A stretch of 47,099 bases of DNA from a virus (lineage: Duplodnaviria; Caudoviricetes): IMG/VR virus record IMGVR_UViG_3300020393_000695, positions 1 to 47,099 of that record; one strand, 5' to 3'. This document shows, in pieces, positions 2-45,677 of this stretch (positions within the stretch are counted from its first letter, which is position 1; the number at the start of each line of letters is the position of its first letter). Below the pieces are notes generated by a model that saw nothing but the letters and a program-made list of their open reading frames with translations, had not been told where the DNA came from and made no database searches. Made by a program: the position numbers and the translations under genes.

Positions 2-175
2 TCATATTACCACCTCAAGTAATTGTAAAAGTTTAGTGAAAGAAAATGCGAAAGCACTCATTGTTACAAAAGGAACTGACAGTCCCCAATTCTTGTCAAT
101 GTAATTAAGGATTCGTACATCCAAATTTGTGAATGTTGAATTCCTTTCTAAGTTACCGATTTCTAATTTTGTCAT
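2..175 (-). CDS. Small early hypothetical protein (57 aa, MTKLEIGNLERNSTF...LLEVVI), missing from the ORF track
   Basis: ATG at 175 is preceded by a GAGG SD (181-184) and a promoter. The frame is open to TGA at 2-4, which overlaps the ATG of the next gene across the circular junction. Confidence 0.7.
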   Translation of the reverse strand: MTKLEIGNLERNSTFTNLDVRILNYIDKNWGLSVPFVTMSAFAFSFTKLLQLLEVVI

Positions 176-8614: not shown

Positions 8615-8622
8615 GCAAAACT

Positions 8623-10360: not shown

Positions 10361-10676
10361 CTTTGAAAATAAATACAGACCTTTACCAGAAGAGGTTTGT
10401 TTACAAAAAAGTTCAATAGAGGGTTGTGGTATTCATGCAAAAAAAACCATACCTAAAAACGTAAGAATAGGAATGACACACGTATCAATTGTTTCTGAAC
10501 CTGATTGGATAAGAACACCTCTAGGTGGTTGGTTGAATCATAGTGAAAAACCAAACTGTCATATTGAATATAACTTTTTAAAAACTAAAAGATTTTTAGT
10601 CACAAGCAAGAGAATATCTAAAGGCAAAGAACTCACCGTTAGATATTCCCTCAAACATTATGTTTATGATGGTTAG
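10353..10676 (+). CDS. Minimal SET-domain protein (putative lysine methyltransferase)
   Basis: GCGIHAKKTI, WLNHSEKPNC and ISKGKELTVRY match SET motifs GxG, NHSxxPN and ELTxxY. The ATG follows the TTG start called at 10350. Confidence 0.85.
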   Translation: MNNFENKYRPLPEEVCLQKSSIEGCGIHAKKTIPKNVRIGMTHVSIVSEPDWIRTPLGGWLNHSEKPNCHIEYNFLKTKRFLVTSKRISKGKELTVRYSLKHYVYDG

Positions 10677-11152
10677 CTCCATTGCTTTGAAGTCCACTTG
10701 ATAAACTTAGAAGCATTTTCCCAAGAGTGTTCCAAAGCTTCCTTGAGTGGTTTCAAGTGCATACCGTTTTGTTCATAACCTTCTTTGATACAATCAAAGT
10801 AAGGTAATGCAGGTTCTTGATAACCTTTACGGTTCATAGCATAGAACATAACTTCTGCTGTATCCCCAAAGTCCTTTTTCATTTGTCCCTGCAACTTGAT
10901 ATAGAAATATTCTTTACGATACAAATGTGGAAACCCCTCAAAGATATCCAATGCTTTTTCACAATCGTCAGTTATTTCCCAAAGTAACCCAGAAACACTT
11001 TGACCCTTTGCAGGTTCAATGTCAGCAACGTTACGAAACACCAGTCGCCATTCTGGTAAATTCATGGTGCAAACAGGTTGAGCTTTTGGACATCTGTATT
11101 CCATGTTCTCAATATTCAAATTTGCTCCATAGGCAAAGTACAATCTTTTCAT
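10673..11152 (-). CDS. Gamma-glutamylcyclotransferase-family protein
   Basis: LYFAYGANL...RCP...ADIEP...ALDIFEGFPHLY. Confidence 0.9.
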   Translation of the reverse strand: MKRLYFAYGANLNIENMEYRCPKAQPVCTMNLPEWRLVFRNVADIEPAKGQSVSGLLWEITDDCEKALDIFEGFPHLYRKEYFYIKLQGQMKKDFGDTAEVMFYAMNRKGYQEPALPYFDCIKEGYEQNGMHLKPLKEALEHSWENASKFIKWTSKQWS

Positions 11153-11403
11153 TTCTTTTTACCTCCAATTTTTCTGATAAGTTTGTAGTGTTCCAAATCA
11201 ATGATGAAGTTGGTTGCAGAATCTGATCTCACCAAATATCCATATTGAACTTTGATACGTCTTGCAGTTTCTTTCATCCAAGTTTCAAACTCCACTTCGT
11301 CACTCAGAGAAACCTCATACATAGAATAGGCAATCTGTTTTCTAGATTGTGCAATCAATGTAACTCCACCTTGTATCTGATATTTCATTTCTCTTTTCAT
11401 CAT
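11149..11403 (-). CDS. Hypothetical protein in the amidoligase cassette
   Basis: 4-nt overlaps with both neighbours and a GGAG SD. Confidence 0.75.
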   Translation of the reverse strand: MMKREMKYQIQGGVTLIAQSRKQIAYSMYEVSLSDEVEFETWMKETARRIKVQYGYLVRSDSATNFIIDLEHYKLIRKIGGKKK

Positions 11404-12302
11404 GATTCCCTCCTGTTGATCTCTCTCAGAGATTTGATTCTGTCCTTATAGAAAGTTTTGAAAACAGCAAGGTCTTCGTGAACTTTACATAAACCGTTGA
11501 ACATCATCATAAATTTAGAATTCATTTGGTTAAGATTATCAACTCCACTTCTGATACCTCTTTGGACATCTGCTGCTCTAACCATTGCACCAGTCAAGAA
11601 CACCCAAGCAATAACTTTCGTTACATCAAAAGTTCCACTGTGGTGTCTGAACTCAATAGTTCCGTGATTCCAAAAACTTTCAATGTTCAACTTCATGTAT
11701 CTAGTATTGAAAAGATTTCTGATTTGACTAGCAGTACGTGATTGATCAATTCTTTTGAAAATAACTTCTGGGTTACCTTCATCACCATGTTCTACATAGT
11801 TGTTCAATCTTGTAAGAAGAGAAGCACAATATTCATTGTTATTTCTTCTTCTACTTGGAGCCATAATTGAATCAATGGCAGTTTCAAACTTAAGATATCT
11901 TTTGTAAAGATTTCTGAAATGTTTGATTTTCCAATCCGATACACCCCAGTGAACGTGTAATCCACAAGAACGGTTTATTCTGAAAACTGGTGCTTCTCCC
12001 AACCTTGATGCGTTTTGGTTGATATCTTGTATGGTCAAGAGAAGCTTGTGTAATTGATTGAAACCAGTTTGTCCTTCTAATATAGGAGTAACAATTTCAT
12101 AACCGTCATACTCCCCAGTACCTCTCAAACTAGAATCACTTTTGATTCTCCAAGAGTTAGAACGATCACTCCAAGAAGCACTTCTGAAATGCATATCTTG
12201 ATCTGCAAGTTTATCATTCAACATACTGATCAGTGTTTCACCACTGTATCTAGCAAGAAGTTCTATCTCAACTCCAAAAGTTCTTTCAAATTCAAATCTC
12301 AT
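11400..12302 (-). CDS. Putative amidoligase (COOH-NH2 ligase, Amidoligase_2-like)
   Basis: TFGVEIE, WRIKSDSSL, EIVTPIL, SCGLHVH, RYMKLN and GTIEFRHHSGT motifs. Confidence 0.9.
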   Translation of the reverse strand: MRFEFERTFGVEIELLARYSGETLISMLNDKLADQDMHFRSASWSDRSNSWRIKSDSSLRGTGEYDGYEIVTPILEGQTGFNQLHKLLLTIQDINQNASRLGEAPVFRINRSCGLHVHWGVSDWKIKHFRNLYKRYLKFETAIDSIMAPSRRRNNNEYCASLLTRLNNYVEHGDEGNPEVIFKRIDQSRTASQIRNLFNTRYMKLNIESFWNHGTIEFRHHSGTFDVTKVIAWVFLTGAMVRAADVQRGIRSGVDNLNQMNSKFMMMFNGLCKVHEDLAVFKTFYKDRIKSLREINRRES

Positions 12303-26411: not shown

Positions 26412-26514
26412 AGTATTTCTTTTCTTTGGTGGTTTTTTATCTGGCACACTTGTTACGTATGCCTTTTTTTCTTTAGTACCTATTTTACAAGCTCTAGCAA
26501 ATTTGCAGTTATGA
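26401..26514 (+). CDS. Small hydrophobic peptide (37 aa, MLIKVFLFFGGFLSGTLVTYAFFSLVPILQALANLQL), missing from the ORF track
   Basis: TTG start after GAGG. Fills the gap exactly, and its TGA overlaps the ATG at 26511 (ATGA). Confidence 0.5.
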   Translation: MLIKVFLFFGGFLSGTLVTYAFFSLVPILQALANLQL

Positions 26515-27095
26515 ATAGTATTTGGCAACTTTGGGAGAAAGGAGTTGATCAAGAAGTATTAAAAAAAATTGAAGAAATCACAAATGAATTGCAAGTTAAA
26601 GATTCTCAAGTAGGTCATTACAAACCGAAAGAAGGAGAAACAAACCCAAAAATTAGAAGATCAAAAACTGCGTTCTTAAATAATTCTAACAAATCACATT
26701 CTCAAATTTTTAGTATGTTCACTAATTTTTTTTATGAAGCAAATGCAAATGCTTTTGGGGTACATATAGATAGACTCACAGATATTCAATACACAGAGTA
26801 TCATGCAGAAGAAGATGGTTTTTATGATTTCCACCAAGATTGTTTTATTGAATCAGAAAGACTTATAGACCGAAAATTAAGTTTGACCATGCAACTTTCA
26901 GACCCAGAAGATTATGAAGGAGGAGATTTTGTATTCCATAATTCATTTGTACCTTCACCACCAGATACAAGGGTTTTGAAAAAACAAGGAGCTATATTAG
27001 TTTTCCCTTCATTTGTTTTGCATAAAGTAGAACCTGTAACAAAAGGCATAAGAAAAAGTTTGGTAGCTTGGATTGATGGACCCTGTTGGAAATAA
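26511..27095 (+). CDS. 2OG-Fe(II) oxygenase (prolyl-hydroxylase/PKHD-like)
   Basis: HQD...RKLS...YEGGDF...FPSFVLHKVEPVTKGIRKSLVAW. Confidence 0.92.
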   Translation: MNSIWQLWEKGVDQEVLKKIEEITNELQVKDSQVGHYKPKEGETNPKIRRSKTAFLNNSNKSHSQIFSMFTNFFYEANANAFGVHIDRLTDIQYTEYHAEEDGFYDFHQDCFIESERLIDRKLSLTMQLSDPEDYEGGDFVFHNSFVPSPPDTRVLKKQGAILVFPSFVLHKVEPVTKGIRKSLVAWIDGPCWK

Positions 27096-27708
27096 ATATA
27101 GTCTGAAAAATAAAAAACTTCTCCAATACAAAACAGAGATGTTGGATTTGAATTTTTATTCAAGTGTAGTTTACAAACAACAAATATCTGCAAAACATCA
27201 TTTTGATCATGTTTATACGTTGCCTTTTTTAGATAAAGAATTTTGTAAAGAATTGTTGCAAGAAATAAAGCTTTTAGAAGAATCTTTTGATTACAAGGGT
27301 AACTTAGATGAAGATGAAAGTGTAAGAAGTCCAGAATTACAAATAGCACAAATATGTCCAGAACTTTCAGAAAATTTGTTACGTAACATATGTACGTTTG
27401 GAAATTATTTTTTTTCAGAAGTGTTTGATTCAGATGTGGATTCTGGATCAGTTCACGTTACTAAATACGATAAAAATTGGATAGGGAAAATGCACAATGA
27501 TTTAGCTGATGTAACTGTTTTGATACCCTTGAATGAAAACGAATTTGATGGTGGAGGTACAGAATTCAAAAAAGGAATTATTGAGCCACAAGACATTGGC
27601 ACTGCAACAATTTTTCCTAGTTTTATTACTAAACACAAAGGATTATCTATTACTTCTGGGGAAAGATATCTACTGGTTTTTTGGTTGAGAAAAATTAAAC
27701 TTTTGTAA
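27073..27708 (+). CDS. 2OG-Fe(II) oxygenase (resembles the PLOD/lysyl-hydroxylase catalytic domain)
   Basis: PFLDKEFCKELL, HNDLADVTVLIPLN, GGGTEF and HKGLSITSGERYLLV. Start codon uncertain. Confidence 0.82.
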   Translation: MMDPVGNKYSLKNKKLLQYKTEMLDLNFYSSVVYKQQISAKHHFDHVYTLPFLDKEFCKELLQEIKLLEESFDYKGNLDEDESVRSPELQIAQICPELSENLLRNICTFGNYFFSEVFDSDVDSGSVHVTKYDKNWIGKMHNDLADVTVLIPLNENEFDGGGTEFKKGIIEPQDIGTATIFPSFITKHKGLSITSGERYLLVFWLRKIKLL

Positions 27709-34340: not shown

Positions 34341-34771
34341 GCAAAAAAATTTTAAAAAAAGTACCCCAATGGGATACAAAACTATTTAATTTTCTAAGAG
34401 AGATAGAACAAAAACCTTTTAAGTGGGGTACTTGGGATTGTTGCATTTTTGCTTTGCAATCAATAGAAGTAATGACAGATAAAAAAACTGTAGCTGTTAC
34501 TTGGAAAGATAAAATGTCTGCCCTCAGATATATAAAAAAAGAAGGTGGGAGTTTGAAAGCAATTGCTGATAAATTTGTCAAACAATACGGGTTAGAAACA
34601 ATACAGAAAAGTTTTGTTACCTGTGGTGATATTGTTTTGATAAAGGAGCAAGAAACACAAGAGGATTTGTTAGGTGTGTGTAGTGGTAATTTAATTTTGT
34701 GTGTTGCAGAAGGAGGTGTAACTTATAAACCCAACGAAGACGCAAAAAAAGTTTGGAGAATTAGTAGTTAA
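34337..34771 (+). CDS. NlpC/P60-like tail assembly protein
   Basis: PFKWGTWDCCIFA...GDIVL. Confidence 0.75.
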   Translation: MSKKILKKVPQWDTKLFNFLREIEQKPFKWGTWDCCIFALQSIEVMTDKKTVAVTWKDKMSALRYIKKEGGSLKAIADKFVKQYGLETIQKSFVTCGDIVLIKEQETQEDLLGVCSGNLILCVAEGGVTYKPNEDAKKVWRISS

Positions 34772-37632
34772 TGCCAAAAGCAATTAAAACAGCAATTGTA
34801 GTTACATTAGGGGCTTTTGTTGTAATTGCTGTCGGGGCACCTGCATTTGTTAAAACATTTACGTTTCTAGGAATGACAGGTACGTCAGCATTCTTGGCCT
34901 TCACGGCAACAAGCACTTTTGTTATGTCAGCACTTGGGTCTATGTTAGCACCAGACCCACCTTCAGTAGCTTTAGAAAATTTTGGAACAAAAGCTTCTAG
35001 AAAAGATGCAAACGCACCAAGACAGATAATTTATGGACAAACAAGAGTTGGTGGAACGATAACTCAGATGGAAACTGTTGGTGATGATAATAATAAATTA
35101 TGTATGTTTATTGTGATTGCAGGACATCAAATAACAAGTATTGAGAAAGTTTTTTTAAATGACAACGAAGTAAGAGTTAATAAAAATGATGGTCAAGGTG
35201 GAAACACTACAACAAGCACAGTAAGTGGAGAAACCGTACATGAGGTTACTGACAGTGCCTTTATAAATACAGAAAATGATAATTCTTTTACCAGTGGCAG
35301 GTTGATTAGATTTACAATACATGATGGTAGTCAAACAGCAAGAGATGGATTGGCTGCCGCAAGTTTGGGAACAACTGCAGTTCCTACTACGCATAAGTTT
35401 ACAAACTGTGCTTACATTTATATGGAATGTATCTATGACCCTGAATTTTTAAGTTCAGTGCCACAAATCTCGTTTGAAGTAAAAGGTAAAAATATATTTG
35501 ATCCAAGAACAAACGCAGTTTCAACAACTGATGCACAAAGATCAAACCCTGCTCTGATAATAAGAGATTATCTTTCAAATTCTGATTTTGGTTTGAAAGC
35601 AACAACAACTGAATTAAATGACTCAACTTCTGCAGGTGGTTTTGCTTCTGCTGCAAATACTTGTGATCAATCTGTAAGCACTGATGATTCAGGTGGTACA
35701 GAATCTAGATACACTTGCAATGGTTTTACAAATATGACAGCTAATGCAAAGGAATTTTTATCAACAGCACTTGCCTCCATGGCAGGTTCTTTGACTTACA
35801 CAAATGGTAAGTTCAATGTTTTTGCAGGTGCAAATCAAACGGCTTCTATGACAATTACTGATGAAGATTGTTTGTCTGATTTACAAATTACAACTAAGAG
35901 TGCAAATGGTGATCTTTTCAATACAGTGAAAGGAATATTTACTGACAGTGAAAATAAATTCATTGGCACAGATGCACCTGTGTTACAGAATGCAACATTT
36001 CTTGCACAAGATACCCCAAGTGGAGAAAGTTCTGCTTCTTACGTAAAAACAATGGAACTTAAATTTCCTTTCACTAACACCGTTACAATGGCACAACGTT
36101 TGATGAAGATTGCATTACTACATCAAAGACAGACGATAACGATTTCTGGAAACTTCACTTTAGAGTTTATGAAATTGCAACCCAAAGATTATGTAAATGT
36201 TACAAATACCAGATTAGGTTTTTCTTCAAAATTGTTTGAGGTTGAAGCTGTAAATTTAGATATTATGGGAGAAGAAAGCGATCCACAACTCGTAACTTCT
36301 TTGCAATTGAAAGAGATGGATACGGCAGTTTATGATTTTGCAACTAATGAATACTCAACACCAATTTCTGTAGTTGCAGTTCAGAATAAAGGCACATCTA
36401 CATTATTGGCTCCAACTGGTGCTAGTAGGCAACAAACAGCAACCGTTGAAGGAGTAACAACAAAAATAAATATTGATGTTTCTTGGACTGCAAGAAATGA
36501 TCCAAGTATTGTTGCTACCGAAGTGCAGTTCAAATTAAATAGTGATAGTAATTACAAATCAATCACAACTGGTCCAAAACAAACAAGAGCTAGTATTCCA
36601 AATGTTGTAGTAGGAGAAACTTATAATATTAGACTTAGAAACATTGGTAAAAATGGAGAAGTTTCGGCAAATGTCGCCCTGTCAGATTTAACTATTGTTG
36701 CAGTTACTACAGCACCTAATACACCTTCAGGTGTAAGTATAGTAAGTGGTAAATCATTTCAAATTGGATTGTCTTGGACCAACCCAAATAATTCTGATTT
36801 ACGTGCTGTAAAAATATATCGTAAGACTAGTAATGTTACCCCGACTGATGACACTGATTTAGTTGAAACAATTTACGGTGAACCAAATGCAAAGTCTATT
36901 TTCAATTTTGGGGTACAAGATGGTTTGACTGCAGGTGTGGTTTATTATTTTTGGTTAAGAGCTATAAATCATTCGGGAGTTCATTCTCCTTTTACTTCAA
37001 GTGTGAACGGTTCGTTTACAACAGTAGATGGTTCAACTTTAGCAATAGACTCAAGTGATGGTATTAAATTAGATACGTTTGATGCAGTAAGTCATGTGAA
37101 CGTAAATACTCTTTCTGCAAATTTATTTTCAGAGGCACAAAAAGTTGATTTCAGTTTTAACAACTCAACCACTTTTACGAATATTGCAACTAATGTGGGT
37201 AATGGTTCTTTAGCACCAATATTAAGTTCTCCGATCAATTTAATAATTCCTGCTACAAAAACAGCAGAATCAAAAAATTACATAGCTAGTTGTGTATTTG
37301 GACCTGTAGGTAAAACAAATACTATTGATAATCTTGTAGGAACGGTAATATGTGTAATTGCAATATCTACAAATTCAAGTGCAACAGTTACCAGTGATTT
37401 TTTAACTACAGAGGAAAGAATTCATTCTGGTGATTCTTTTGCTTTATCAACAATGACTTTGCAAAAAGGGTTTAGTGTTACAACGAGTACGTCAGCAACA
37501 GTTACTAGATTTATTCATGTTTATGGTTTTCAGTTTGGGATATACGGAAGTGGTTATGATTTTACTAATGCTGCTGATACAGGTGATTTAGGTTTTACAG
37601 TTGATGTTTCTGTTTCTGGTGCCCATAGATGA
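34771..37632 (+). CDS. Central tail tip/host-specificity protein (lambda J-like, FN3 domains)
   Basis: PRQIIYGQTRVGG, SNPALIIRDYL, and FN3-like LSWTNP...YYFWLRAIN. Confidence 0.88.
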   Translation: MPKAIKTAIVVTLGAFVVIAVGAPAFVKTFTFLGMTGTSAFLAFTATSTFVMSALGSMLAPDPPSVALENFGTKASRKDANAPRQIIYGQTRVGGTITQMETVGDDNNKLCMFIVIAGHQITSIEKVFLNDNEVRVNKNDGQGGNTTTSTVSGETVHEVTDSAFINTENDNSFTSGRLIRFTIHDGSQTARDGLAAASLGTTAVPTTHKFTNCAYIYMECIYDPEFLSSVPQISFEVKGKNIFDPRTNAVSTTDAQRSNPALIIRDYLSNSDFGLKATTTELNDSTSAGGFASAANTCDQSVSTDDSGGTESRYTCNGFTNMTANAKEFLSTALASMAGSLTYTNGKFNVFAGANQTASMTITDEDCLSDLQITTKSANGDLFNTVKGIFTDSENKFIGTDAPVLQNATFLAQDTPSGESSASYVKTMELKFPFTNTVTMAQRLMKIALLHQRQTITISGNFTLEFMKLQPKDYVNVTNTRLGFSSKLFEVEAVNLDIMGEESDPQLVTSLQLKEMDTAVYDFATNEYSTPISVVAVQNKGTSTLLAPTGASRQQTATVEGVTTKINIDVSWTARNDPSIVATEVQFKLNSDSNYKSITTGPKQTRASIPNVVVGETYNIRLRNIGKNGEVSANVALSDLTIVAVTTAPNTPSGVSIVSGKSFQIGLSWTNPNNSDLRAVKIYRKTSNVTPTDDTDLVETIYGEPNAKSIFNFGVQDGLTAGVVYYFWLRAINHSGVHSPFTSSVNGSFTTVDGSTLAIDSSDGIKLDTFDAVSHVNVNTLSANLFSEAQKVDFSFNNSTTFTNIATNVGNGSLAPILSSPINLIIPATKTAESKNYIASCVFGPVGKTNTIDNLVGTVICVIAISTNSSATVTSDFLTTEERIHSGDSFALSTMTLQKGFSVTTSTSATVTRFIHVYGFQFGIYGSGYDFTNAADTGDLGFTVDVSVSGAHR

Positions 37633-38024
37633 GTTATCCAAAAATCATAAGTATCTACAAAAAAAGTGATGGAATCATTTGTCAGGTTCTTACGGTTTCC
37701 GAAGAATCAGCATTGAATATTTCAGAAGATTTCGGGTATGTAGATGGCAGTTATGAAAAAGGAAAATACAAAGTAGAAAATGACAAAGTAATAGCTTACA
37801 CACCAAATTATATTTTAGGAACAAATTCTGGAAATGTTAGAGAAGAAAGGAATAGAAGACTTTTACAATCAGATTGGACACAGTTACCAGATAGCCCCCT
37901 ATCAGATTCTAAAAAAACTGAATGGGCTACTTACCGACAACAACTGCGAGATATGATGGGTTCTTATACTGACTCAGAAAATAACACAGTTGAAAATACA
38001 ACATTTCCCACACAACCAAGTTAG
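37629..38024 (+). CDS. Tail fibre assembly chaperone
   Basis: VREERNRRLLQSDWTQLPDSPL...WATYRQQLRD...FPTQP. Confidence 0.85.
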   Translation: MSYPKIISIYKKSDGIICQVLTVSEESALNISEDFGYVDGSYEKGKYKVENDKVIAYTPNYILGTNSGNVREERNRRLLQSDWTQLPDSPLSDSKKTEWATYRQQLRDMMGSYTDSENNTVENTTFPTQPS

Positions 38025-38033
38025 GAGTAAACA

Positions 38034-38360
38034 ATGGAAGAAATAAAAAAAGAAGAACCAATAAAAAAACGTCTTGAGTTAGACATAGATGTAACACCAC
38101 AAAATAACGGAGAGAATCCATATATAAATTGGGTACACTTAGCGAAAACCATAGATGCTTGGCGCATTTTTCCTAGAATCTTTGTAAGTGTTTATATAGT
38201 TCTTTTATACAAAGTTGTAATATGGTTTATGGAATTACCAGAACCAAACTTAGAACAATCTGCTTTGGTATCAATAGTGGTTGGTGCTATGGCTGCAGTA
38301 TTTGGAATATATGCAGGTACTTCAGGACAAAGCAAAAAGTTTAGAGGTGAAGAGAATTAA
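38034..38360 (+). CDS. Two-TM membrane protein, holin candidate
   Basis: WRIFPRIFVSVYIVLLY and ALVSIVVGAMAAVFGIY helices with a charged C-terminus. First gene after the tail module. Confidence 0.55.
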   Translation: MEEIKKEEPIKKRLELDIDVTPQNNGENPYINWVHLAKTIDAWRIFPRIFVSVYIVLLYKVVIWFMELPEPNLEQSALVSIVVGAMAAVFGIYAGTSGQSKKFRGEEN

Positions 38361-38653
38361 TGGAAACTTTTAATCTTATTGCAGAGGTTGGAGTTCCAAT
38401 TGCAGGTGCTTTGATTATGGCTTATTTCATATTCTTAGTTATGAAACAATTGTTGTCAGGTTTAGTATCAGAAATCAAACAAATACAAGGCATTACTCAA
38501 ATGTTGATTACAAGAGCTTCTATTATGAATAATGATATGATTCGGATAGATACCAGTGTTTCTTCAGCTTTAGATTTAAGACCAGATTTACAAAGAATTG
38601 CTAGAGCAGAGAATTTTGTAGAAGATGGGAAAATTGATGCTAGAAGAGATTGA
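38360..38653 (+). CDS. Single-TM coiled-coil membrane protein A
   Basis: LIAEVGVPIAGALIMAYFIFLVM followed by a coiled coil with DMIRI. Confidence 0.75.
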   Translation: METFNLIAEVGVPIAGALIMAYFIFLVMKQLLSGLVSEIKQIQGITQMLITRASIMNNDMIRIDTSVSSALDLRPDLQRIARAENFVEDGKIDARRD

Positions 38654-38937
38654 TGGACATTGCACAATTAATTGCTGATTTTGGTTTCCCTGTTGTTATG
38701 GTTGTTGGGTTAGGATACTTTGTCTATTACGTTTGGCAAACTATCACAAATACAATTGATCCTGCTGTTTCAGATATGAAAAAAACTATTATTAGATTGA
38801 CAGATCAATTACGTTTGCTTGATCAGGATATGATACGATTGCAACAAAAGGTGAATACCGTTTTAGAATTAAAAGAAGAAAAGAAAAATGAAACGAAAAA
38901 AAACAAGACAAGAACTAGAGCAAGACGAAAAAGTTAA
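38653..38937 (+). CDS. Single-TM coiled-coil membrane protein B (paralogue of A)
   Basis: LIADFGFPVVMVVGLGYFVYYVW followed by a coiled coil with DMIRL. ATG at 38653 overlaps the upstream TGA. Confidence 0.75.
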   Translation: MDIAQLIADFGFPVVMVVGLGYFVYYVWQTITNTIDPAVSDMKKTIIRLTDQLRLLDQDMIRLQQKVNTVLELKEEKKNETKKNKTRTRARRKS

Positions 38938-39400
38938 ATATTGGTTTACCATTGTTGGGTTTTCAGTGATATGTTTGACTTTGCTTTTCGGAGCTTTTCA
39001 AACAGCTTTTGCAGATGAAATGCGTCATAAATTCAAATCTCCAAGTTTTTCTGGGAATGGTACATCTCAACATTATTTGACCATAGAAAATCAAGAACAC
39101 CTTAGAAAGAAACAAATTGAAGAAGAGAAACAAGCTCTTTTGGATGAACTTGAAAGAGATGAAGCTAATTCCACAGTTGCGAGATTTATACGTAATTTAG
39201 AATCTAGGGTTTATGCTAACTTATCAAGACAACTTGTAGAAAACCTTTTTGGAGAAGATGCACAACAATTTGGTTCTATTATGCTTGAAGGCAATCTCAT
39301 AGAGTATGTTGCAACTGATGAAACAATTACACTCACAATCACAGATGAAAATGGTCAAACTACCGATATCACATTTCCTCTTAATAGTTTTACTTTCTAG
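38888..39400 (+). CDS. csgF: CsgF-like curli assembly protein
   Basis: Signal peptide ending AFA, then DEMRHKFKSPSFSGNG...LTIENQE (compare CsgF F-x-NPxFGG), F-x-x-x-LE-x-x-x-x-x-x-LSRQL, and ITITDENGQTTDITFP. Confidence 0.75.
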   Translation: MKRKKTRQELEQDEKVKYWFTIVGFSVICLTLLFGAFQTAFADEMRHKFKSPSFSGNGTSQHYLTIENQEHLRKKQIEEEKQALLDELERDEANSTVARFIRNLESRVYANLSRQLVENLFGEDAQQFGSIMLEGNLIEYVATDETITLTITDENGQTTDITFPLNSFTF

Positions 39401-40196
39401 TTGTGCAAATTTAAAGTTTGATGCCAACCCTAATGTAAAAATATCAAAGTATCCTTATGTAACAGATGTTATTAATAGGGATATCATCAAACAAAGACCA
39501 CCAAAAGAAAATTTAATAGTTGCTGTTTACGAAAATAGTTTTTCTGATCTCACAGGACAAAGAAGAAGCAATAGTGAATATGCTTCTTTTAGTACAGCAG
39601 TTACACAAGGTTCACATAATATCCTTATCAAAGTTTTAAAAGATGTAAGCAATGGAAAGTTTTTTACAGTAGTAGAACGTGTTGCATTAGAGAATCTTAC
39701 AAAAGAAAGACAAATCATTAGGAGTGCTAGACAAAATTTTGAGGAGGATAAGCAACTTGGTAGTTTGTTATTTGCAGGAATGTTATTTGAGGGTGGAATT
39801 ATTTCCTATGAAAACAATGTCAGGAGTGGTGGTTCAGGTGCAAGGTTTCTTGGTTTAGGTGCTTCTAGAGAATACCGACAAGATGCAATTACTATCAGTT
39901 TGCGATTAGTTTCTGTTCTTACTGGGAGAATCCTTTTAGAAGAAACGGTTGCAAAAACTATACTCTCAGTTTCAACAAATCAGGACACTTTCAGGTTTGT
40001 TAGAAACAATACGGAATTAGTTGAAATTGAGAACGGAAACGTGGAAAATGAATCCATTACTATTGCATTGCAATCTGCCATAGAAGAAGCAGTTCTCAGA
40101 ATCATAGAGAAGGGATTTGAACAAAAATTTTGGAGCTATGATGAAACAAATATTATTGATTGCACTGATGATGTCTGCTCTGATATACGGGGCTGA
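39345..40196 (+). CDS. csgG: CsgG-like outer-membrane secretion lipoprotein
   Basis: Lipobox LSSC, VAVY...FSDLTGQR...FSTAVTQG, VVERVALENLTKERQIIR, EGGIISYE...GGSGARFLGLG...YRQD. Start at 39345 or 39351. Confidence 0.92.
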   Translation: MKMVKLPISHFLLIVLLSSCANLKFDANPNVKISKYPYVTDVINRDIIKQRPPKENLIVAVYENSFSDLTGQRRSNSEYASFSTAVTQGSHNILIKVLKDVSNGKFFTVVERVALENLTKERQIIRSARQNFEEDKQLGSLLFAGMLFEGGIISYENNVRSGGSGARFLGLGASREYRQDAITISLRLVSVLTGRILLEETVAKTILSVSTNQDTFRFVRNNTELVEIENGNVENESITIALQSAIEEAVLRIIEKGFEQKFWSYDETNIIDCTDDVCSDIRG

Positions 40197-40848
40197 TAAC
40201 GAAATACAAATAGACCAAACTGGTGGCACATTGAATGCCGATATTGAACAGTTAGGTTCAGGTAACTTAATAGGTGGAAGTGATGCAACTGCAGGTGATA
40301 TGACTGCACTTGATTTAGATGGTGCAACCATGACTATTGATATCAACCAAATAGGTGATTCAAACCTTTTCAAAGGGGATATAGTATCAGATACTTTCAC
40401 AGGTTTTTTTAACTTTGATGGCAACTCAAATATTTTTGATATACAAGTTGATCCTACGAATACATATGGTGCTGATAATTCTGATTTGAATATACAGGTT
40501 TCTGGTAACTCAAATGATCTTTCTTTAGATCAAGCTACAACATCAATGACTTCTGCTCTTGATTTAGATTGGATAATACAGGGAGATTCAAACATCATTG
40601 ATGCTGATATTGATGTTGATTTATCAACTAACTATATGGACATTGATGGAAACTCAAATCAACTGACATTTGATTCAAGTGGTTATCAAGGTGGCTATTT
40701 TTACATTGACCATACAGGGAACAGTAGAAATTTTTCTATTAATCAACAATCTACATTAGACAATGACTGGTTACGTGTATTTAGTAATGGTGATAACGGC
40801 ACTTTCTGTATCAACCAAAATGATGGGGGCACCAGTACCAGTTGTTGA
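40138..40848 (+). CDS. Secreted curlin-repeat protein (CsgA/CsgB-like)
   Basis: Signal peptide, then about 8 imperfect repeats of type (I/L)x(I/Q)xGxxNx(F/I/L)x(I/L)xQ. Rich in Asn, Asp, Gly and Gln. Directly follows csgG. Confidence 0.72.
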   Translation: MMKQILLIALMMSALIYGADNEIQIDQTGGTLNADIEQLGSGNLIGGSDATAGDMTALDLDGATMTIDINQIGDSNLFKGDIVSDTFTGFFNFDGNSNIFDIQVDPTNTYGADNSDLNIQVSGNSNDLSLDQATTSMTSALDLDWIIQGDSNIIDADIDVDLSTNYMDIDGNSNQLTFDSSGYQGGYFYIDHTGNSRNFSINQQSTLDNDWLRVFSNGDNGTFCINQNDGGTSTSC

Positions 40849-41875
40849 TATTGGTGCTGTAAAGGAAGTATCTGGGACTACTAAACTCATTAGAGATAAT
40901 GAGTATGATCTTTTTGAAAACTTTCAAATACAAAGTTATGATGATGTTCGGACAGCTAATGGAAGAGTTGCAATAAATTTTATAGATGAATCTGAAGTAA
41001 GACTTACCGAACATTCTTCATTGGTCATTGATGAATACATTTATGACCCAAACCCAACTAAAACCAAAATGGCACTGAAGTTTGCTTCAGGCACTGCAAG
41101 GTTCATTTCAGGCAATCTAGCAAAAATAGATAAAAGAAATATATCTCTAAAAACTCCAACGGCCCAAATTGCTGTAAGAGGAACTGACTTTACTTGTACA
41201 GTAGATGAACTTGGAAAGAGTTTAATAATTCTTTTACCAGATGAAAATGGTGATGCTTCAGGTGAAATTGTAGTCAGTACACTTGCAGGGCAAGTAGTTT
41301 TGAACAAACCTTACGAATCAACAGTTACCAGTCTGTATGAAACACCACCTTCCAACCCAGTGATTTTGAATTTAGATTTAGCTTTCATAGATAATTATTT
41401 GATTATCAATCCACCAAATGAGGAACGTTTAGATATTGGACAGGATTCACAAAATGGTTCTGCAGATTATTTAGAGTTTGCAGAATTAGATTTTGATTTC
41501 TTAGCAGAAGATTTTTTAGATAATGAACAAGAACTTGAGTTTACAGAATTAGATATTGATTATTTAGATCAAAACTTTTTAGAAGATTTGTTGAATGTTA
41601 TTGATAGTTTGGCTGTTGATGAAACTGATGAACTTAGTCAAGTTGCTTCATCAGTTAATATTCAAGGCACTTTTGTTGGACAAGATGGTGATACGCAAAT
41701 AACTACTATTCTTCAAGATGCAAAAGCTAGTTTCCGAAGAAATATTTCTAATAGCTTACAAATTGATATTGATGATGATTCAAGCACGACTATCATCATG
41801 GAACAAGATGGAGTGTCAAATCTTATCAAGCTTAATGGTGGAACTGATTCTACTATCTCAATAAATCAAACATGA
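40763..41875 (+). CDS. Exported FecR-domain protein with an acidic linker
   Basis: N-terminal hydrophobic leader, DDVRTANGRVAINFIDESEVRLTEHSSLVID and LKTPTAQIAVRGTDF. Confidence 0.85.
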   Translation: MTGYVYLVMVITALSVSTKMMGAPVPVVDIGAVKEVSGTTKLIRDNEYDLFENFQIQSYDDVRTANGRVAINFIDESEVRLTEHSSLVIDEYIYDPNPTKTKMALKFASGTARFISGNLAKIDKRNISLKTPTAQIAVRGTDFTCTVDELGKSLIILLPDENGDASGEIVVSTLAGQVVLNKPYESTVTSLYETPPSNPVILNLDLAFIDNYLIINPPNEERLDIGQDSQNGSADYLEFAELDFDFLAEDFLDNEQELEFTELDIDYLDQNFLEDLLNVIDSLAVDETDELSQVASSVNIQGTFVGQDGDTQITTILQDAKASFRRNISNSLQIDIDDDSSTTIIMEQDGVSNLIKLNGGTDSTISINQT

Positions 41876-43635
41876 AATATATCGGCTTAGCATTTATATT
41901 TTTACTTGCTTTACCCCTCTTTTTTCAGGTGACAATTTTAGAGATAGTAAAACTAAATACTTTTGATTATTTTGTTGACACTCCAAAACCTACAGGGAAT
42001 TTTGTTATTCTTAATATTACAGATGAAGATATTGATTCTGAAGGCGGCTATCCTTTACCACGTTCAAAATTAGCTGAAATACAAATCCAACTTTTGAGAG
42101 AAGGTGCAATTGGTATAGGTTGGGGTTTTGGTTTTCCTCATGCAGATAGATTGGATGGTGATAGAGATTTTGTAAAAGCTCTCTCCTATAGTCCAAGTGT
42201 TATCTCTTCTTTTGAAAACAATTCACAGAATTTTCCAAGACCTACTGGAACTGTAATTCTTGGTCCAGATGCAAACGGAATCCAAACAAATGGAGTCATT
42301 CAAAATATTCCTGTATTGCGTTCTGTAGCTTTGGAGGGAGTTGCGACTGCAAGAACAGAGATTGATAATCTAGTTAGAAGAATACCTTTGTTGTACAAAA
42401 CTCCAGAGGGTTGGATTGCTAGTTTTGGCACACAAGTTTTAAAAGCTCTCACAGATTCCAATACTTATATCATCAAAACAAATGAATCTGGTATTGAAGA
42501 AATAACTATCAAAGGCATACCACCAGTGAAAACAGATTTGCTTGGAAGGAAATGGATATCATGGGTAGCTACAGAAGAAACTACACTTCAAGAAATGAAT
42601 GTCAAAGATAAGTTTGTTTTTGTTGGAATTACAGCAAAAGGGATAATGCCACAGGTCGCAACACCTGTTGGGTTACTTGAACCCCATAAAATACAAACTG
42701 CGTTAGCAGAATCACTGCTCCTTGAAAATAGCCCTTATGTACCAAGTTATGCAAAATTGGTGGAAATCATGGTATTTTTCTTATCTGTGGGCTCCATATG
42801 GCTCATTCTAGCCCGTTTTGGAGTAACTTTGGGTATAAGTACCTCCGTATTTATCCTGCTTGTGGTGGGCTTGTTAGGAGTTCAAGCTATTAAAAATGGT
42901 TTCTTAATAGATGTAACTTGGACTCTTATTTCAAGTGTATTGGTTGGAACGTTAGCTTTCTATTTACGATTTAGAGAGCAGTACAAACTACGTTTACAAA
43001 TTAAGAAACAATTTGAACATTATCTTGACCCAAGACAGGTAAAACAACTTCAAAAGAATCCTGACTTATTAAAATTGGGTGGTGAAAAAAGAACGGCAAC
43101 TTTTTTGTTTACAGATTTACGTGGGTTCACATCTCTCTCAGAAAAACTTGAACCAGAAGAAGTTACAAAAATTATGAACCGAGTTTTATCAGTACAATCA
43201 AAATGCGTTCAACATCACGGTGGGATGATAGATAAATTTATAGGTGATGCAATGATGGGCATTTTCAATGCACCTTTAGATTTAGAAGATCACGAAGATT
43301 GTGCAGTTCTTTGTGCAATGGATATATGTGATGAAATAGAAATGTTAAATGCAGAATTACAAAAAGAGGGTAAACCCTTAGTAGCGATTGGTATTGGTAT
43401 AAACACAGGAGAAGCCATTATTGGAAACATGGGCAGTAGTACAAGATTTGATTACACAGCAATTGGGGATGCAGTAAACATTGCAGCCAGACTTGAAAGT
43501 GCAACTAAAGAACAAGGTGTAGATATTTTAGTTGGCGAAACAACACAATTTAATTCTTGTCATAACCTACAACTGGAAGCTAAAATCAACGTCAAAGGAA
43601 AAGAATTACCTTTGAATGTTTATACATTAGTATGA
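41872..43635 (+). CDS. CHASE2-domain membrane class III adenylate cyclase
   Basis: CHASE2 motifs ILNITDEDI...YPLPR, DNLVRRIPL and KFVFVGITA, then 3 TMs, then the cyclase motifs FTDLRGFT, DKFIGDA and DYTAIGDAVNIAARLES. Confidence 0.95.
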   Translation: MKYIGLAFIFLLALPLFFQVTILEIVKLNTFDYFVDTPKPTGNFVILNITDEDIDSEGGYPLPRSKLAEIQIQLLREGAIGIGWGFGFPHADRLDGDRDFVKALSYSPSVISSFENNSQNFPRPTGTVILGPDANGIQTNGVIQNIPVLRSVALEGVATARTEIDNLVRRIPLLYKTPEGWIASFGTQVLKALTDSNTYIIKTNESGIEEITIKGIPPVKTDLLGRKWISWVATEETTLQEMNVKDKFVFVGITAKGIMPQVATPVGLLEPHKIQTALAESLLLENSPYVPSYAKLVEIMVFFLSVGSIWLILARFGVTLGISTSVFILLVVGLLGVQAIKNGFLIDVTWTLISSVLVGTLAFYLRFREQYKLRLQIKKQFEHYLDPRQVKQLQKNPDLLKLGGEKRTATFLFTDLRGFTSLSEKLEPEEVTKIMNRVLSVQSKCVQHHGGMIDKFIGDAMMGIFNAPLDLEDHEDCAVLCAMDICDEIEMLNAELQKEGKPLVAIGIGINTGEAIIGNMGSSTRFDYTAIGDAVNIAARLESATKEQGVDILVGETTQFNSCHNLQLEAKINVKGKELPLNVYTLV

Positions 43636-44033
43636 AAGTCACAATAATATTAGGAGTTTTACTCTTAACAACAGTAACAAGTTCTGGATTGATAATAAGA
43701 AACTTGATGCTCAAGAATTCTGTTTTAGAAGCAAATCAATTAGTTTTAGAAGATAAAATTGTTGAACAAAACGAATCAATAAAAACTTATTTGGCAAACC
43801 AAGAAAGACACAACAAGCAACTAACAGAGATGCAAAATTCTGTTAATGCAGCACAAAGATTGGTTACAGACTTAAGAAACACTTTTGCAAAACATGATTT
43901 GAATAATCTGGCATTAATGAAACCAAAACTTATTGAAAAAAGAATTAATTCAGCTTCAAAAAAAGTTTTTGATAAATTGGTAGAAACAACAAATCCAAAT
44001 CAATTTGATGAAATACCTGATAACGATTCTTAG
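43632..44033 (+). CDS. Inner-membrane spanin (Rz-like), putative
   Basis: N-terminal TM and long coiled coil, overlapping a downstream lipoprotein gene. Confidence 0.7.
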   Translation: MKVTIILGVLLLTTVTSSGLIIRNLMLKNSVLEANQLVLEDKIVEQNESIKTYLANQERHNKQLTEMQNSVNAAQRLVTDLRNTFAKHDLNNLALMKPKLIEKRINSASKKVFDKLVETTNPNQFDEIPDNDS

Positions 44034-44364
44034 TTTATTTATCTTTACAAGTTGTGCTTCTATGCAAAGAACACAACCAGTAGAGGTCGTAACAATTACA
44101 GAAAAGGCACCAATGTTTCATCCACCTTTACCACTTGAATTACAACTTGCAGAAGTAGAATTTGAGGTTCTTACACCAGAAATTATGAAAGAGTATTTAC
44201 AATTGATTGAAGAAGGAAAAGCACCGGCAAGACCCTATTATGCTCTCACGACAAAGGGGTACGAAAACATATCTAATAATATTGCAGATATACAGCGATA
44301 CATTTCCAACATATTGTTAATAGTTGAATATTATAGAAATTATGACGAGAAAGAAGATGAATGA
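44008..44364 (+). CDS. Outer-membrane spanin lipoprotein (Rz1-like), putative
   Basis: Lipobox FTSC and Pro-rich APMFHPPLP. Confidence 0.7.
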   Translation: MKYLITILSLFIFTSCASMQRTQPVEVVTITEKAPMFHPPLPLELQLAEVEFEVLTPEIMKEYLQLIEEGKAPARPYYALTTKGYENISNNIADIQRYISNILLIVEYYRNYDEKEDE

Positions 44365-44743
44365 TCCATACTATTATAATTGTAATCTAGTGAAAGTAAT
44401 TGATGGAGATACCATAGATGTTGATATTGATTTAGGTTTCAATATTGTACTTTCAAAAAGACGTATAAGATTGATGGGCATAGATACACCAGAAAGCAGA
44501 ACAAGAAATCTTGCAGAAAAAGAATTAGGTTTAAAAGCTAAAGATAGACTGATAGAACTATGTGGAGAAAAATTACAGTTACTATCTTATGGCACAGATA
44601 AATACGGAAGAGTTTTGGGAGTACCACATACAATTGACGGTTATGATATTTGCAAAATATTAATTGAGGAAAATCATGCAGTTTCTTATTGGGGTGGTAA
44701 AAAAGTTGCTAAAGTTCTGCCAAATGGAAAATGGGGGGTATGA
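44357..44743 (+). CDS. Staphylococcal-nuclease-like (thermonuclease) protein
   Basis: VIDGDT, RIRLMGIDTPE and DKYGRVLG. Confidence 0.9.
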   Translation: MNDPYYYNCNLVKVIDGDTIDVDIDLGFNIVLSKRRIRLMGIDTPESRTRNLAEKELGLKAKDRLIELCGEKLQLLSYGTDKYGRVLGVPHTIDGYDICKILIEENHAVSYWGGKKVAKVLPNGKWGV

Positions 44744-44744
44744 A

Positions 44745-45188
44745 ATGAGAATCTCAGAAGAAGGAAAAAGTTTAATTAAAAAGTTTGAAGGATGTCGTCT
44801 AGAGGCATATCTTTGTCCTGCTGATTATTGGACTATTGGATATGGACACATAAAAGGAGTGCAAGAAGGAGATACGATTACTCAAGAAATGGCAGATATT
44901 TATTTAGATAGTGATATAGAAGAATTTGAATCCTATGTTGAAGGAATGGTAGATATTCCCCTTAGTCAAAATGAATTTGACGCATTAGTTTGTTGGACAT
45001 TCAATCTGGGACCAACAAATTTAGGTAGCTCCACATTATTGAAGGTTCTCAATCAAGGCAAAAAAGAAGAAGTACCATTTGAAATCAAACGTTGGAATAA
45101 AAGCAATGGAGAAGTTCTAGAAGGTTTGGTGAGAAGAAGAGAAGCAGAAGCATTACTCTTTGAAGGTAAGGAGTGGGAAAATATTTAG
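44745..45188 (+). CDS. Endolysin, GH24 phage lysozyme
   Basis: LIKKFEGCRLEAYLCPADYWTIGYGH...FNLG...GLVRRREAE. Confidence 0.95.
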   Translation: MRISEEGKSLIKKFEGCRLEAYLCPADYWTIGYGHIKGVQEGDTITQEMADIYLDSDIEEFESYVEGMVDIPLSQNEFDALVCWTFNLGPTNLGSSTLLKVLNQGKKEEVPFEIKRWNKSNGEVLEGLVRRREAEALLFEGKEWENI

Positions 45189-45415
45189 TGGCTTTATCTA
45201 AAACACAAAACAAACGATTAGGCATTCTTTTGTCAGTTATGTTTGCAGAAGAATTGACTGATGATGATGTGAAAGAAGTTGTAGAGCAGAATCTTGTAGA
45301 AAAGGTTCACGGTAATTATATGATCACCGAAAAAGGATTATCTGAAAAAAATCGTCTTTGTACTCTTGCAGGTTTGGTAATTCGTTATCAATCAGAAAAA
45401 AAAGAGGGGAGTTAG
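45173..45415 (+). CDS. Hypothetical protein
   Basis: Last plus-strand ORF before the convergent terminator. Start uncertain (GTG at 45173 or 45188). Confidence 0.6.
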   Translation: MGKYLVALSKTQNKRLGILLSVMFAEELTDDDVKEVVEQNLVEKVHGNYMITEKGLSEKNRLCTLAGLVIRYQSEKKEGS

Positions 45416-45424
45416 ACTCCCCTC
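45396..45424 (-). terminator. Rho-independent terminator at the early/late convergence
   Basis: GAGGGGAGT-TAG-ACTCCCCTC 9-bp stem with an A8 tract on the left (U tract on the minus strand). Confidence 0.85.
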
Positions 45425-45491
45425 ATAAACCACATTGTATTGATAAAATACTAAGTTTTATTGGGATAAAACTCAGCCGAGGTGTGTGGTT

Positions 45492-45677
45492 TTAGTTTTC
45501 TCTTTGAAGAACTTGATAGTCATATTTTTGCCAAATGTCTTCTTTGAATACATCCCAATTTGCACATTCGGTTTCAATGATTTTATCTGCTCTATCAAAA
45601 CCATAATTTTTTACAAGTTCTGAATACCTTCTATAAGTTCTTTCGTAACTCATAAATTCTTTCATTGTTTTTTTCAT
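45492..45677 (-). CDS. Hypothetical early protein
   Basis: ATGA-coupled to the upstream ORF. Confidence 0.65.
   Translation of the reverse strand: MKKTMKEFMSYERTYRRYSELVKNYGFDRADKIIETECANWDVFKEDIWQKYDYQVLQREN

What the first reader, a model, noticed from the sequence alone, without database searches (positions are those of the whole stretch)
38360..43635. Phage-encoded curli pore + curlin + FecR + CHASE2 adenylate cyclase operon: candidate trans-envelope signalling system inside the lysis region
Seen: seven consecutive genes, each overlapping the next: TM-A, TM-B, CsgF-like, CsgG-like lipoprotein, secreted curlin-repeat protein, exported FecR-domain protein and CHASE2-3TM-cyclase. The block takes more than 5 kb (about 11% of the genome) between the holin candidate and the spanin/endolysin genes. 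Known: CsgG/CsgF form the curli (type VIII) secretion pore. FecR-domain proteins and CHASE2 cyclases are neighbours in bacterial signalling loci. From memory, csgF/csgG have been reported in SAR11 myophages, but I know of no functional description of the link to FecR and a cyclase in a phage. No CsgE, CsgC or CsgD is visible. Inference: the products span outer membrane, periplasm, inner membrane and cytoplasm. A surface curlin/CsgG complex could sense contact, superinfecting virions or kin-infected cells and relay through FecR to CHASE2, producing cAMP that tunes lysis timing or host physiology. Alternatively it builds amyloid that aggregates hosts or masks receptors.
Basis: partly seen in the sequence, partly recalled or inferred. 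Interest (0 to 1): 0.92.

Follow-up and report, generated by a model that had tools for sequence, protein, structure and literature searches.

The report
Known phage curli-cyclase module, siphovirus copy
A marine long-tailed phage carries, next to its lysis genes, an intact copy of an already published gene block (curli-type outer-membrane pore, curlin-like protein, FecR-domain protein, membrane adenylate cyclase); it likely builds a pore-anchored surface structure for which the cAMP-making enzyme is an optional read-out, but its function is untested.

Summary
The seven overlapping genes are real, intact and under purifying selection. An independent 2025 assembly holds the whole region in one contig. 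The block is not new: Wittmers et al. 2022 (PMC9599517) described the same order (small genes, CsgF, CsgG, curlin, FecR, cyclase) in pelagiphage podo- and myoviruses, and cultured HTVC008M and Melnitz carry it. This scan had noted it on other DNA many times (73 findings, at least 69 genomes), including a siphovirus and a lysis-cassette copy.

What this check adds:
(1) The cyclase is optional: absent in 28 of 69 curlin-anchored loci and in a complete genome, while FecR stays constrained.
(2) The two small genes are one-helix membrane proteins, not the histidine kinases of the paper.
(3) The closest bacterial relatives of the FecR domain are N-terminal domains, often of RTX adhesins, and often sit beside related cyclases.
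(4) The FecR protein ends in a weak curlin-like rung.

Best model: a CsgG/CsgF/curlin export-and-display unit with FecR as a periplasmic anchor and the cyclase as an accessory sensor. Placement by lysis genes is common in small phages but not in the two cultured myophages. The host and the cAMP target are unknown.

The parts
38034..38360 (+). Two-helix membrane protein, holin candidate (flank; often travels with the block)
   Evidence: 2 hydrophobic segments; phrog_10198 unknown function; precedes TM-A in many relatives
38360..38653 (+). TM-A, 97 aa single-helix membrane protein (the 'HK' position of Wittmers 2022; not a kinase)
   Evidence: phrog_18771; 1 hydrophobic segment; 42% identical to HTVC008M gp011; no HATPase_c in the record
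38653..38937 (+). TM-B, 94 aa paralogue of TM-A
   Evidence: phrog_18771 2e-27, weak holin phrog_4898 1.9e-5; 21% identical to TM-A in alignment A3
38888..39400 (+). CsgF-like protein with signal-type hydrophobic segment
   Evidence: PF10614 1.7e-17; hydropathy
39351..40196 (+). CsgG-like outer-membrane lipoprotein (open frame begins at 39306; start chosen by alignment)
   Evidence: PF03783 1.2e-48; E. coli CsgG structures at E about 1e-37; lipobox Cys invariant in 23 of 23
40138..40848 (+). Secreted curlin-like beta-solenoid with a C-terminal Cys pair
   Evidence: PF07012; AF2 mean pLDDT 86; top VIA-align hit P. korlensis CsgA 8c50, Z 18.6, rmsd 9.1, 200 aligned; alignment A2
40763..41875 (+). 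FecR-domain protein: N-terminal FecR fold, about 100 aa acidic linker, beta-rich tail ending in a degenerate curlin-like rung
   Evidence: PF04773 1e-11; AF2 model; best Foldseek hit PupR CCSSD 6ovk, E 2.2e-3; charge profile; tail motif test
41872..43635 (+). N-terminal TM + CHASE2 + 3 TM + class III adenylate cyclase; optional in the family
   Evidence: PF05226, PF00211; D415, K455, D459, N536, R540, K575 invariant in 41 of 41, T/S529; absent in 28 of 69 curlin-anchored loci
43632..44033 (+). Rz-like inner spanin (flank)
   Evidence: phrog_739 3.7e-9
44008..44364 (+). Rz1-like outer spanin (flank)
   Evidence: phrog_812 5.4e-13
44360..44743 (+). SNase-like nuclease (flank)
   Evidence: PF00565 1.5e-10
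44748..45188 (+). Phage lysozyme/endolysin (flank)
   Evidence: PF00959 1.5e-46

Best explanation
The block is an intact copy of the published phage curli module, and it likely builds a CsgG/CsgF pore in the infected cell's outer membrane that would export the curlin-like solenoid and would hold the FecR protein as a pore-tethered anchor, with the CHASE2 cyclase predicted to be an optional cAMP read-out of that structure. Shown: gene identities, order, purifying selection, an intact cyclase motif, the cyclase being dispensable, and bacterial relatives of the FecR domain sitting at the N-terminus of secreted adhesins and near related cyclases. Inferred: late expression with the lysis genes; Sec export; the folded FecR domain staying in the periplasm while its acidic linker and curlin-like tail engage the pore or curlin; FecR contacting CHASE2; cAMP acting on a host protein. 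The benefit to the phage (surface masking, contact sensing, timing of lysis) is not shown.
For: Core always together: FecR after curlin 77 of 77, CsgG before curlin 76 of 76; in cyclase-anchored loci all five genes are in order 38 of 38. Cyclase optional: present in 41 of 69 curlin-anchored loci with room; no cyclase in a complete 58 kb genome or a 91% complete one, with 2 positive controls; cyclase-less loci fall in 4, 6 and 9 clades on FecR, CsgG and curlin trees. FecR omega is 0.020-0.054 in four cyclase-less pairs, so it has a job without the phage cyclase. Bacterial relatives match only the N-terminal domain (86 of 300 genomes sampled from the class of G011). Of 15 such proteins scanned, 9 carry RTX repeats and 2 more carry cadherin/FG-GAP/Calx repeats; type I secretion genes lie beside 5. 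25 of 113 listed bacterial cyclase hits have a listed FecR-like hit within 5 kb (lower bound). FecR tail: QxGxxN in 115 of 155, I-x-I-x-Q ending in 154 of 155, tail beats shuffles (p<=0.05) in 106 and 115 of 155 with two curlin matrices. Columns conserved with the cyclase are lost more often in the FecR domain of cyclase-less phages (12 of 81) than in the C-part (2 of 57), Fisher p 0.043, sequences not independent. Pore retention by an N-terminal module is shown for LapA (10.1101/198937, abstract); that is an analogy only.
Against: Profile-profile comparison of FecR and curlin alignments is not significant (probability 1.3%). The tail rung scores far below true repeats (window 18-25 versus median 39-43) and is not found in the HTVC008M or Melnitz FecR tails. 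AF2 gives low confidence for FecR residues 170-351. The linker has conserved hydrophobic periodicity, which suggests a binding element rather than a passive thread. No CsgG or curlin gene lay near any of 20 bacterial FecR loci, so there is no bacterial precedent for this pairing in my sample. No CsgE gate. No cAMP receptor in the phage, and the host is unknown. The residue changes in cyclase-less FecRs are mostly conservative and come mainly from one clade.
Confidence: 0.45

Rival explanations
1. Curli fibre secretion: the block makes amyloid that aggregates hosts (sibling capture) or masks receptors against superinfection; FecR and the cyclase are loosely attached regulators (Wittmers 2022; Zaragoza-Solas 2020).
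For: CsgG, CsgF and a curlin fold are present; the cyclase is dispensable; a second curlin gene occurs in HTVC008M, Melnitz, L058 and L064.
Against: Buchholz 2022 saw no clumping of Melnitz-infected cells in cytograms or TEM under their conditions, although Melnitz carries the full block. The single curlin here has irregular rungs and a conserved Cys-pair C-terminus, which may cap the solenoid (inference). FecR is never missing after curlin (77 of 77), which is unexpected for a loose passenger.
Confidence: 0.22
2. Lysis accessory: the pore and/or the small membrane proteins take part in envelope disruption or its timing (as proposed by Buchholz 2022); the cyclase, where present, tunes this.
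For: The block is translationally coupled to the holin candidate and Rz (1 and 4 nt overlaps). A window-type lysis gene lies within 1.5 kb downstream in 44 of 62 cyclase-anchored loci and in 19 of 25 cyclase-less loci (not dereplicated). Other lysis genes occur in L030, L055 and L063. 9 of 28 TM proteins hit a holin PHROG weakly (best 1.6e-5).
Against: In HTVC008M and Melnitz no lysis gene is annotated within 7 kb of the FecR gene. Several podovirus-like loci continue into non-lysis genes. This genome already has spanins and lysozyme. A late operon is a natural landing site for envelope cargo (inference).
Confidence: 0.17
3. Ungated import channel: CsgG without CsgE lets ligands into the periplasm, where FecR/CHASE2 sense them (nutrient or iron status).
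For: No CsgE; proposed as an alternative in PMC9599517; the FecR fold resembles PupR-type signalling domains.
Against: Does not explain the obligatory curlin and CsgF. The nearest FecR relatives are adhesin N-termini, not FecI/FecR anti-sigma factors. No sigma factor or TonB-dependent receptor in the block.
Confidence: 0.1
4. Degenerate host capture or chimeric assembly.
For: None found.
Against: One 30.9 kb contig from an independent study spans 34700-45500 with 250 differences. omega is 0.035-0.132 for all seven genes against L001. GC is 34.1% in the block versus 34.7% elsewhere. At least 7,481 related protein clusters exist.
Confidence: 0.01

Closest known systems
Pelagiphage viral T8SS (curli) region, Wittmers et al. 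2022, PMC9599517
   Same: Order: one or two small genes, CsgF, CsgG, curlin, FecR, adenylate cyclase; no CsgC/D/E; cyclase not always present.
   Different: Described for Podoviridae and Myoviridae; this carrier has siphovirus genes (tail terminator, major tail, tape measure, distal tail, J-like fibre). No second curlin here. The paper calls the small genes histidine kinases, but here they are 94-97 aa one-helix proteins with no kinase domain. The main text does not mention CHASE2, holin, spanin or endolysin.
HTVC008M (NC_020484 gp011-gp019) and Methylophilales phage Melnitz (MZ577098) modules; PMC7029224, PMC9004378
   Same: Homologues of all seven genes in the same order, 31-43% identical.
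   Different: T4-like 141-147 kb myophages; extra curlin between FecR and the cyclase; not beside annotated lysis genes; the FecR tail lacks the QxGxxN rung.
Enterobacterial curli system (csgBAC-csgDEFG)
   Same: CsgG pore (E about 1e-37 to E. coli structures), CsgF family hit, curlin fold.
   Different: No CsgE, CsgC or CsgD; one divergent curlin; added FecR protein, cyclase and TM proteins.
Bacterial FecR-domain + CHASE2 cyclase loci (Campylobacterota cluster, PMC9239204; S. meliloti CyaD1/D2/K with SMc02177, PMC5498481)
   Same: FecR-domain exported protein beside a CHASE2 adenylate cyclase.
   Different: The outer-membrane partner in bacteria is a type I secretion/TolC or TPR-type protein, not CsgG. 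In S. meliloti the FecR gene was not required for perceiving the plant signal.

Membership tests
Pelagiphage viral T8SS module (Wittmers 2022) | CsgF, CsgG and curlin adjacent in this order | tested here: met
Pelagiphage viral T8SS module (Wittmers 2022) | Followed by FecR and frequently an adenylate cyclase | tested here: met
Pelagiphage viral T8SS module (Wittmers 2022) | Preceded by one or two short genes (labelled HK in the paper) | tested here: met
   TM-A and TM-B are homologous to HTVC008M gp011/gp012 (42%, 36%)
Pelagiphage viral T8SS module (Wittmers 2022) | No CsgC, CsgD, CsgE | tested here: met
   (record 95% complete)
Pelagiphage viral T8SS module (Wittmers 2022) | Host is Pelagibacter | not testable with these tools
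   No host call; the nearest cultured capsid match is a Rhizobium phage at 46.5%
Histidine kinase (TM-A/TM-B) | HisKA/HATPase_c catalytic domain | tested here: not met
   94-97 aa; no kinase family among 28 members at E<=0.1; no PF02518 in the record
Class III adenylate cyclase | Two metal-binding Asp, adenine-specifying Lys and Thr/Ser/Asp, transition-state Asn and Arg (role labels recalled) | tested here: met
   Invariant in 41 of 41; T 30 / S 11 at position 529
Class III adenylate cyclase | Makes cAMP | not testable with these tools
   Needs an assay
Canonical curli system | CsgE gate and CsgD regulator | tested here: not met
Canonical curli system | Subunit with curlin beta-solenoid fold | tested here: met
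   AF2 pLDDT 86; top VIA hit CsgA 8c50, Z 18.6, rmsd 9.1; Foldseek gave no E<=0.001 hit
Canonical curli system | Forms amyloid fibres | not testable with these tools
   Needs ThT/EM
FecI/FecR/FecA cell-surface signalling | Membrane-anchored anti-sigma FecR with ECF sigma and TonB-dependent receptor | tested here: not met
   The FecR domain is N-terminal, with no cytoplasmic anti-sigma part; no sigma or TonB-dependent receptor among the 14 neighbouring ORFs
Holin (TM-A/TM-B or 38034-38360) | Holin family match or lytic activity | tested here: inconclusive
   9 of 28 weak hits to phrog_4898; nearest named Atlas cluster YvrJ at 0.88, a lead only
Pycsar cyclase | Pyrimidine cyclase with a cNMP-binding effector beside it | tested here: not met
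   PycC hits cover only the catalytic region; adenine-type residues; no cNMP-binding gene

The most novel reading that the evidence does not exclude
Marine phages of at least three virion types have rebuilt a bacterial adhesin-retention/CHASE2 sensor on a curli pore. The FecR protein threads CsgG, docks its terminal curlin-like rung on the surface solenoid and keeps its FecR plug in the periplasm. Contact or load outside then switches the CHASE2 cyclase, and cAMP sets lysis timing. Cyclase-less phages would signal to a host-encoded CHASE2 cyclase instead.
Probability: 0.18. Interest if true: 0.85.

Novelty: new member of a known kind. Interest (0 to 1): 0.33.

Why it matters
The module is abundant: about 0.1% of assembled marine viral proteins according to PMC9599517, at least 7,481 FecR clusters, and roughly 2,200-2,300 IMG/VR stretches by estimate. 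Its function is unknown. This copy extends it to a siphovirus-type genome and sharpens what to test. The fixed core is TM-CsgF-CsgG-curlin-FecR, the cyclase is an add-on, and the 'histidine kinase' label looks wrong. If the tether-and-sense model held, it would be a phage-built outside-in sensor, which would be a major result; nothing here shows that yet.

Tried and rejected
- Complex prediction, FecR domain (8-200) with CHASE2 (26-292), both as alignments: no verdict, score 0.01 against a mark of 0.32, controls not folded. It is not used as evidence either way.
- Foldseek gave no E<=0.001 match for the curlin model or the FecR model.
- Sequence searches of PDB with CsgF and with the curlin profile found nothing meaningful.
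- ESM Atlas: no usable hit for FecR 195-351.
- Promoter scan was below chance (27 versus 36.8 expected).
- No RNA holder listed among public runs.
- Scan of genome contigs with the FecR alignment used only two patterns and gave 5 loci in 3 MAGs. They have 50-62% identity and phage-like neighbours, so I read them as mis-binned phage contigs, not bacterial operons.
- 'Longer' FecR search gave only 2 proteins.
- Host assignment: I tested whether the small low-GC family around G019 could be the source or host. It is rich in cNMP-binding proteins (42 of 42) and has CHASE2-type cyclases, but these are only about 38-40% identical over the C-terminal half and no closer than other bacteria, so no host claim is made.
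- PMC12753301 and PMC10580990 have no mention of curli.
- Rejected readings: chimera or decay; histidine kinase; FecI/FecR iron signalling; Pycsar.
Full report
OBSERVATION. The record is a 47,099 nt IMG/VR virus record, 95% complete. It has an HK97-type head, tail terminator, major tail, tape measure, distal tail and a J-like fibre, that is, a siphovirus gene set. Seven + strand ORFs fill 38360-43635 (11.2% of the record), and each overlaps the next. Family scans confirm CsgF, CsgG, a curlin repeat, FecR, and CHASE2 plus a class III cyclase. Rz/Rz1-like spanins, an SNase and a lysozyme follow. The upstream two-helix 'holin' has no named family. CsgE, CsgC, GerE/CsgD, HATPase_c and cNMP-binding domains were not found in the record, with controls ringing.

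NOT AN ARTEFACT. Of four runs from four studies laid on 34700-45500, one (X2, 2025) holds the whole stretch in a single 30.9 kb contig with 250 differences; the other three cover it in short pieces. Against L001, omega is 0.035-0.132 for the seven genes, with dS 0.9-2.6, partly saturated. GC matches the rest of the genome. The residues I recall as catalytic in class III cyclases are invariant in 41 of 41 aligned proteins, with Thr or Ser at the adenine site.

ALREADY KNOWN. Wittmers et al. 2022 (PMC9599517; I saw the abstract, passages and section 9, not the supplements) describe one or two 'HK' genes, CsgF, CsgG, CsgA/B, FecR, often a second curlin and an adenylate cyclase, in pelagiphage podo- and myoviruses. 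They note the lack of CsgE, report transcripts, and offer aggregation, superinfection defence or import as functions. Zaragoza-Solas 2020 (PMC7029224, passages) first noted csgF/csgG. Buchholz 2022 (PMC9004378, passages and part 1 of 2 of section 9) proposed lysis timing and saw no clumping. HTVC008M and Melnitz carry homologues of all seven genes in the same order. In my searches I found no paper placing the module in a siphovirus, naming its CHASE2 domain, or testing it. The library is limited, and the Wittmers supplements (Fig. S3, Data Set S1F) may bear on this. Earlier notes of this scan report the block 73 times in at least 69 genomes, including a siphovirus and lysis-cassette copies.

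SYNTENY AND WHAT IS FIXED. The viral scans kept the best 80 loci each, so they are biased to close relatives and are not dereplicated unless stated. Cyclase-anchored: FecR upstream in 65 of 65 loci with room, and all five genes in order in 38 of 38. FecR-anchored: cyclase in 68 of 68. Curlin-anchored: FecR 77 of 77, CsgG 76 of 76, but cyclase only 41 of 69; in most of the 28 without it, FecR runs straight into spanin genes. A complete 58 kb genome with terminal repeats and a 91% complete genome have no cyclase anywhere, while two controls do. Cyclase-less loci form 4 clades on the FecR tree, 6 on CsgG and 9 on curlin. FecR stays strongly constrained in cyclase-less pairs (omega 0.020-0.054, four pairs; 0.054-0.116 in four cyclase-bearing pairs). 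So the core is TM-CsgF-CsgG-curlin-FecR and the cyclase is accessory. This agrees with the paper's remark that the cyclase is not always present.

LYSIS LINK. A homologue of the window's spanins or lysozyme lies within 1.5 kb downstream in 44 of 62 cyclase-anchored loci (within 3 kb in 22 of 29 clusters at 85% identity). Over all viral loci the counts are 70 of 121 with cyclase and 19 of 25 without. Some 'misses' carry other lysis genes; others continue into non-lysis genes. In HTVC008M and Melnitz no lysis gene is annotated within 7 kb. The linkage is common in small phages but not universal, and it may only reflect late transcription.

ANATOMY. CsgG aligns with E. coli CsgG structures and has an invariant lipobox Cys. 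The curlin folds confidently as a beta-solenoid (pLDDT 86). Its best wide structural match is P. korlensis CsgA (Z 18.6, rmsd 9.1, 200 aligned), ahead of SufB/D-type solenoids at Z 15-16; Foldseek found nothing at E<=0.001. TM-A and TM-B are paralogous one-helix proteins, all in phrog_18771 (28 of 28), with weak holin hits in 9 of 28 and no kinase domain; the published HK label is not supported. The FecR protein has a moderately confident N-terminal FecR fold (about 10-165), then a low-confidence, highly acidic linker and a beta-rich tail. The last 30 residues resemble one curlin rung in most small-phage copies (QxGxxN in 115 of 155; above shuffles in 106 and 115 of 155). However, they score well below true repeats and do not do so in the two myophages, and profile-profile comparison is not significant. 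This is a hint, not a finding.

BACTERIAL CONTEXT. I took this lead from an earlier scan note (e1-5631924) and tested it. In 300 genomes drawn from the class of G011 (a MAG titled Parvibaculum), 86 have a match, and all listed matches cover only the N-terminal domain, often in very long frames (G011's own phage-like hits dropped). Among 15 such proteins scanned, 9 have RTX repeats, 2 have other adhesin repeats and 4 show FecR alone; type I secretion genes flank 5 (neighbours only partly scanned). In 20 regions of 8-19.5 kb, none had CsgG, curlin or TM homologues and 3 had a cyclase. Cross-listing shows 25 of 113 bacterial cyclase hits within 5 kb of a listed FecR-like hit, 36 within 20 kb (148 FecR places were listed and 47 were not). 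FecR + CHASE2 clusters are also in print (PMC9239204, PMC5498481, passages). In S. meliloti the FecR gene was not needed for signal perception, which counts against a simple relay. LapA shows that an N-terminal module can tether an adhesin in its pore (10.1101/198937, abstract); homology to that module was not tested.

MECHANISM. Most likely (0.45) the phage installs a curli-type pore that exports the curlin and retains the FecR protein as an anchor. The CsgG channel is about 13 A wide, too narrow for a folded domain (inference). The cyclase, where kept, would read the state of that anchor. A weak sign of coupling: columns conserved in cyclase-bearing FecRs are lost more often in the FecR domain (12 of 81) than in the C-part (2 of 57) of cyclase-less ones. 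On the FecR-domain tree the cyclase-less copies share an ancestor with only 42 of 155 tips, against 150 of 155 on the C-part tree. These rest on few independent lineages and mostly conservative changes. Rivals are plain amyloid secretion (0.22), a lysis accessory (0.17) and an import channel (0.10). The target of cAMP is unknown: the phage has no cNMP-binding protein and the host is unassigned.

VERDICT. A real, intact and abundant module, but a further member of one published in 2022. Interest 0.33; it would be high only if the tether-and-sense mechanism were shown.

Noticed in passing
window 10350-10676 (+): Small SET-domain protein (Pfam SET 9.7e-9), unusual cargo for a small phage.
   Followed up: no
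window 7356-10360 (+): ParB-like, unknown 226 aa, PAPS-reductase/DUF3440 and ParB-like cluster; resembles IbrA/IbrB or DNA-modification modules (recalled).
   Followed up: no
window 10673-12302 (-): Amidoligase plus gamma-glutamyl cyclotransferase pair.
   Followed up: no
window 26511-27708 (+): Two 2OG-Fe(II) oxygenases between a long tail-fibre gene and the head-tail connector genes.
   Followed up: no
L284, L308 (G019:C4:614000-645000) and the 42-genome family of G019: Small (0.8-2.0 Mb) genomes, about 33% GC in the loci measured. G019 has a locus of GAF-cyclase, TolC, FecR-domain protein, two type I secretion sets, small cNMP-binding proteins, a CHASE2 cyclase and a cNMP-HlyD fusion; all 42 genomes have cNMP-binding proteins. 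Possibly a cAMP-gated adhesin secretion system in a streamlined lineage.
   Followed up: partly
L029 3189-4688; L085 1694-2854: ORFs that look like DNA cytosine methyltransferases (by eye) inserted between FecR and the cyclase; other loci have small inserts there. The FecR-cyclase junction is an insertion and loss hotspot.
   Followed up: no
L084-L088: Module copies in three GTDB MAGs (titled Maricaulis, Neomarinimicrobiota, Parvibaculum) with phage-like neighbours, probably mis-binned phage contigs; L087 lacks the cyclase.
   Followed up: partly
window 40138-40196 and 40763-40848: The CsgG C-terminal Cys-pair extension and the FecR N-terminus lie in overlaps with the curlin gene; the CsgG extension is present in only some relatives and may be a by-product of the overlap.
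   Followed up: no
P0121, P0122: Longer FecR-domain relatives (940 and 962 aa) whose C-termini look by eye like TbpB-type barrels, i.e. FecR domain plus another secreted cargo.
   Followed up: no
window 45404-45424: Terminator-like hairpin where the late operon meets the convergent early genes.
   Followed up: no
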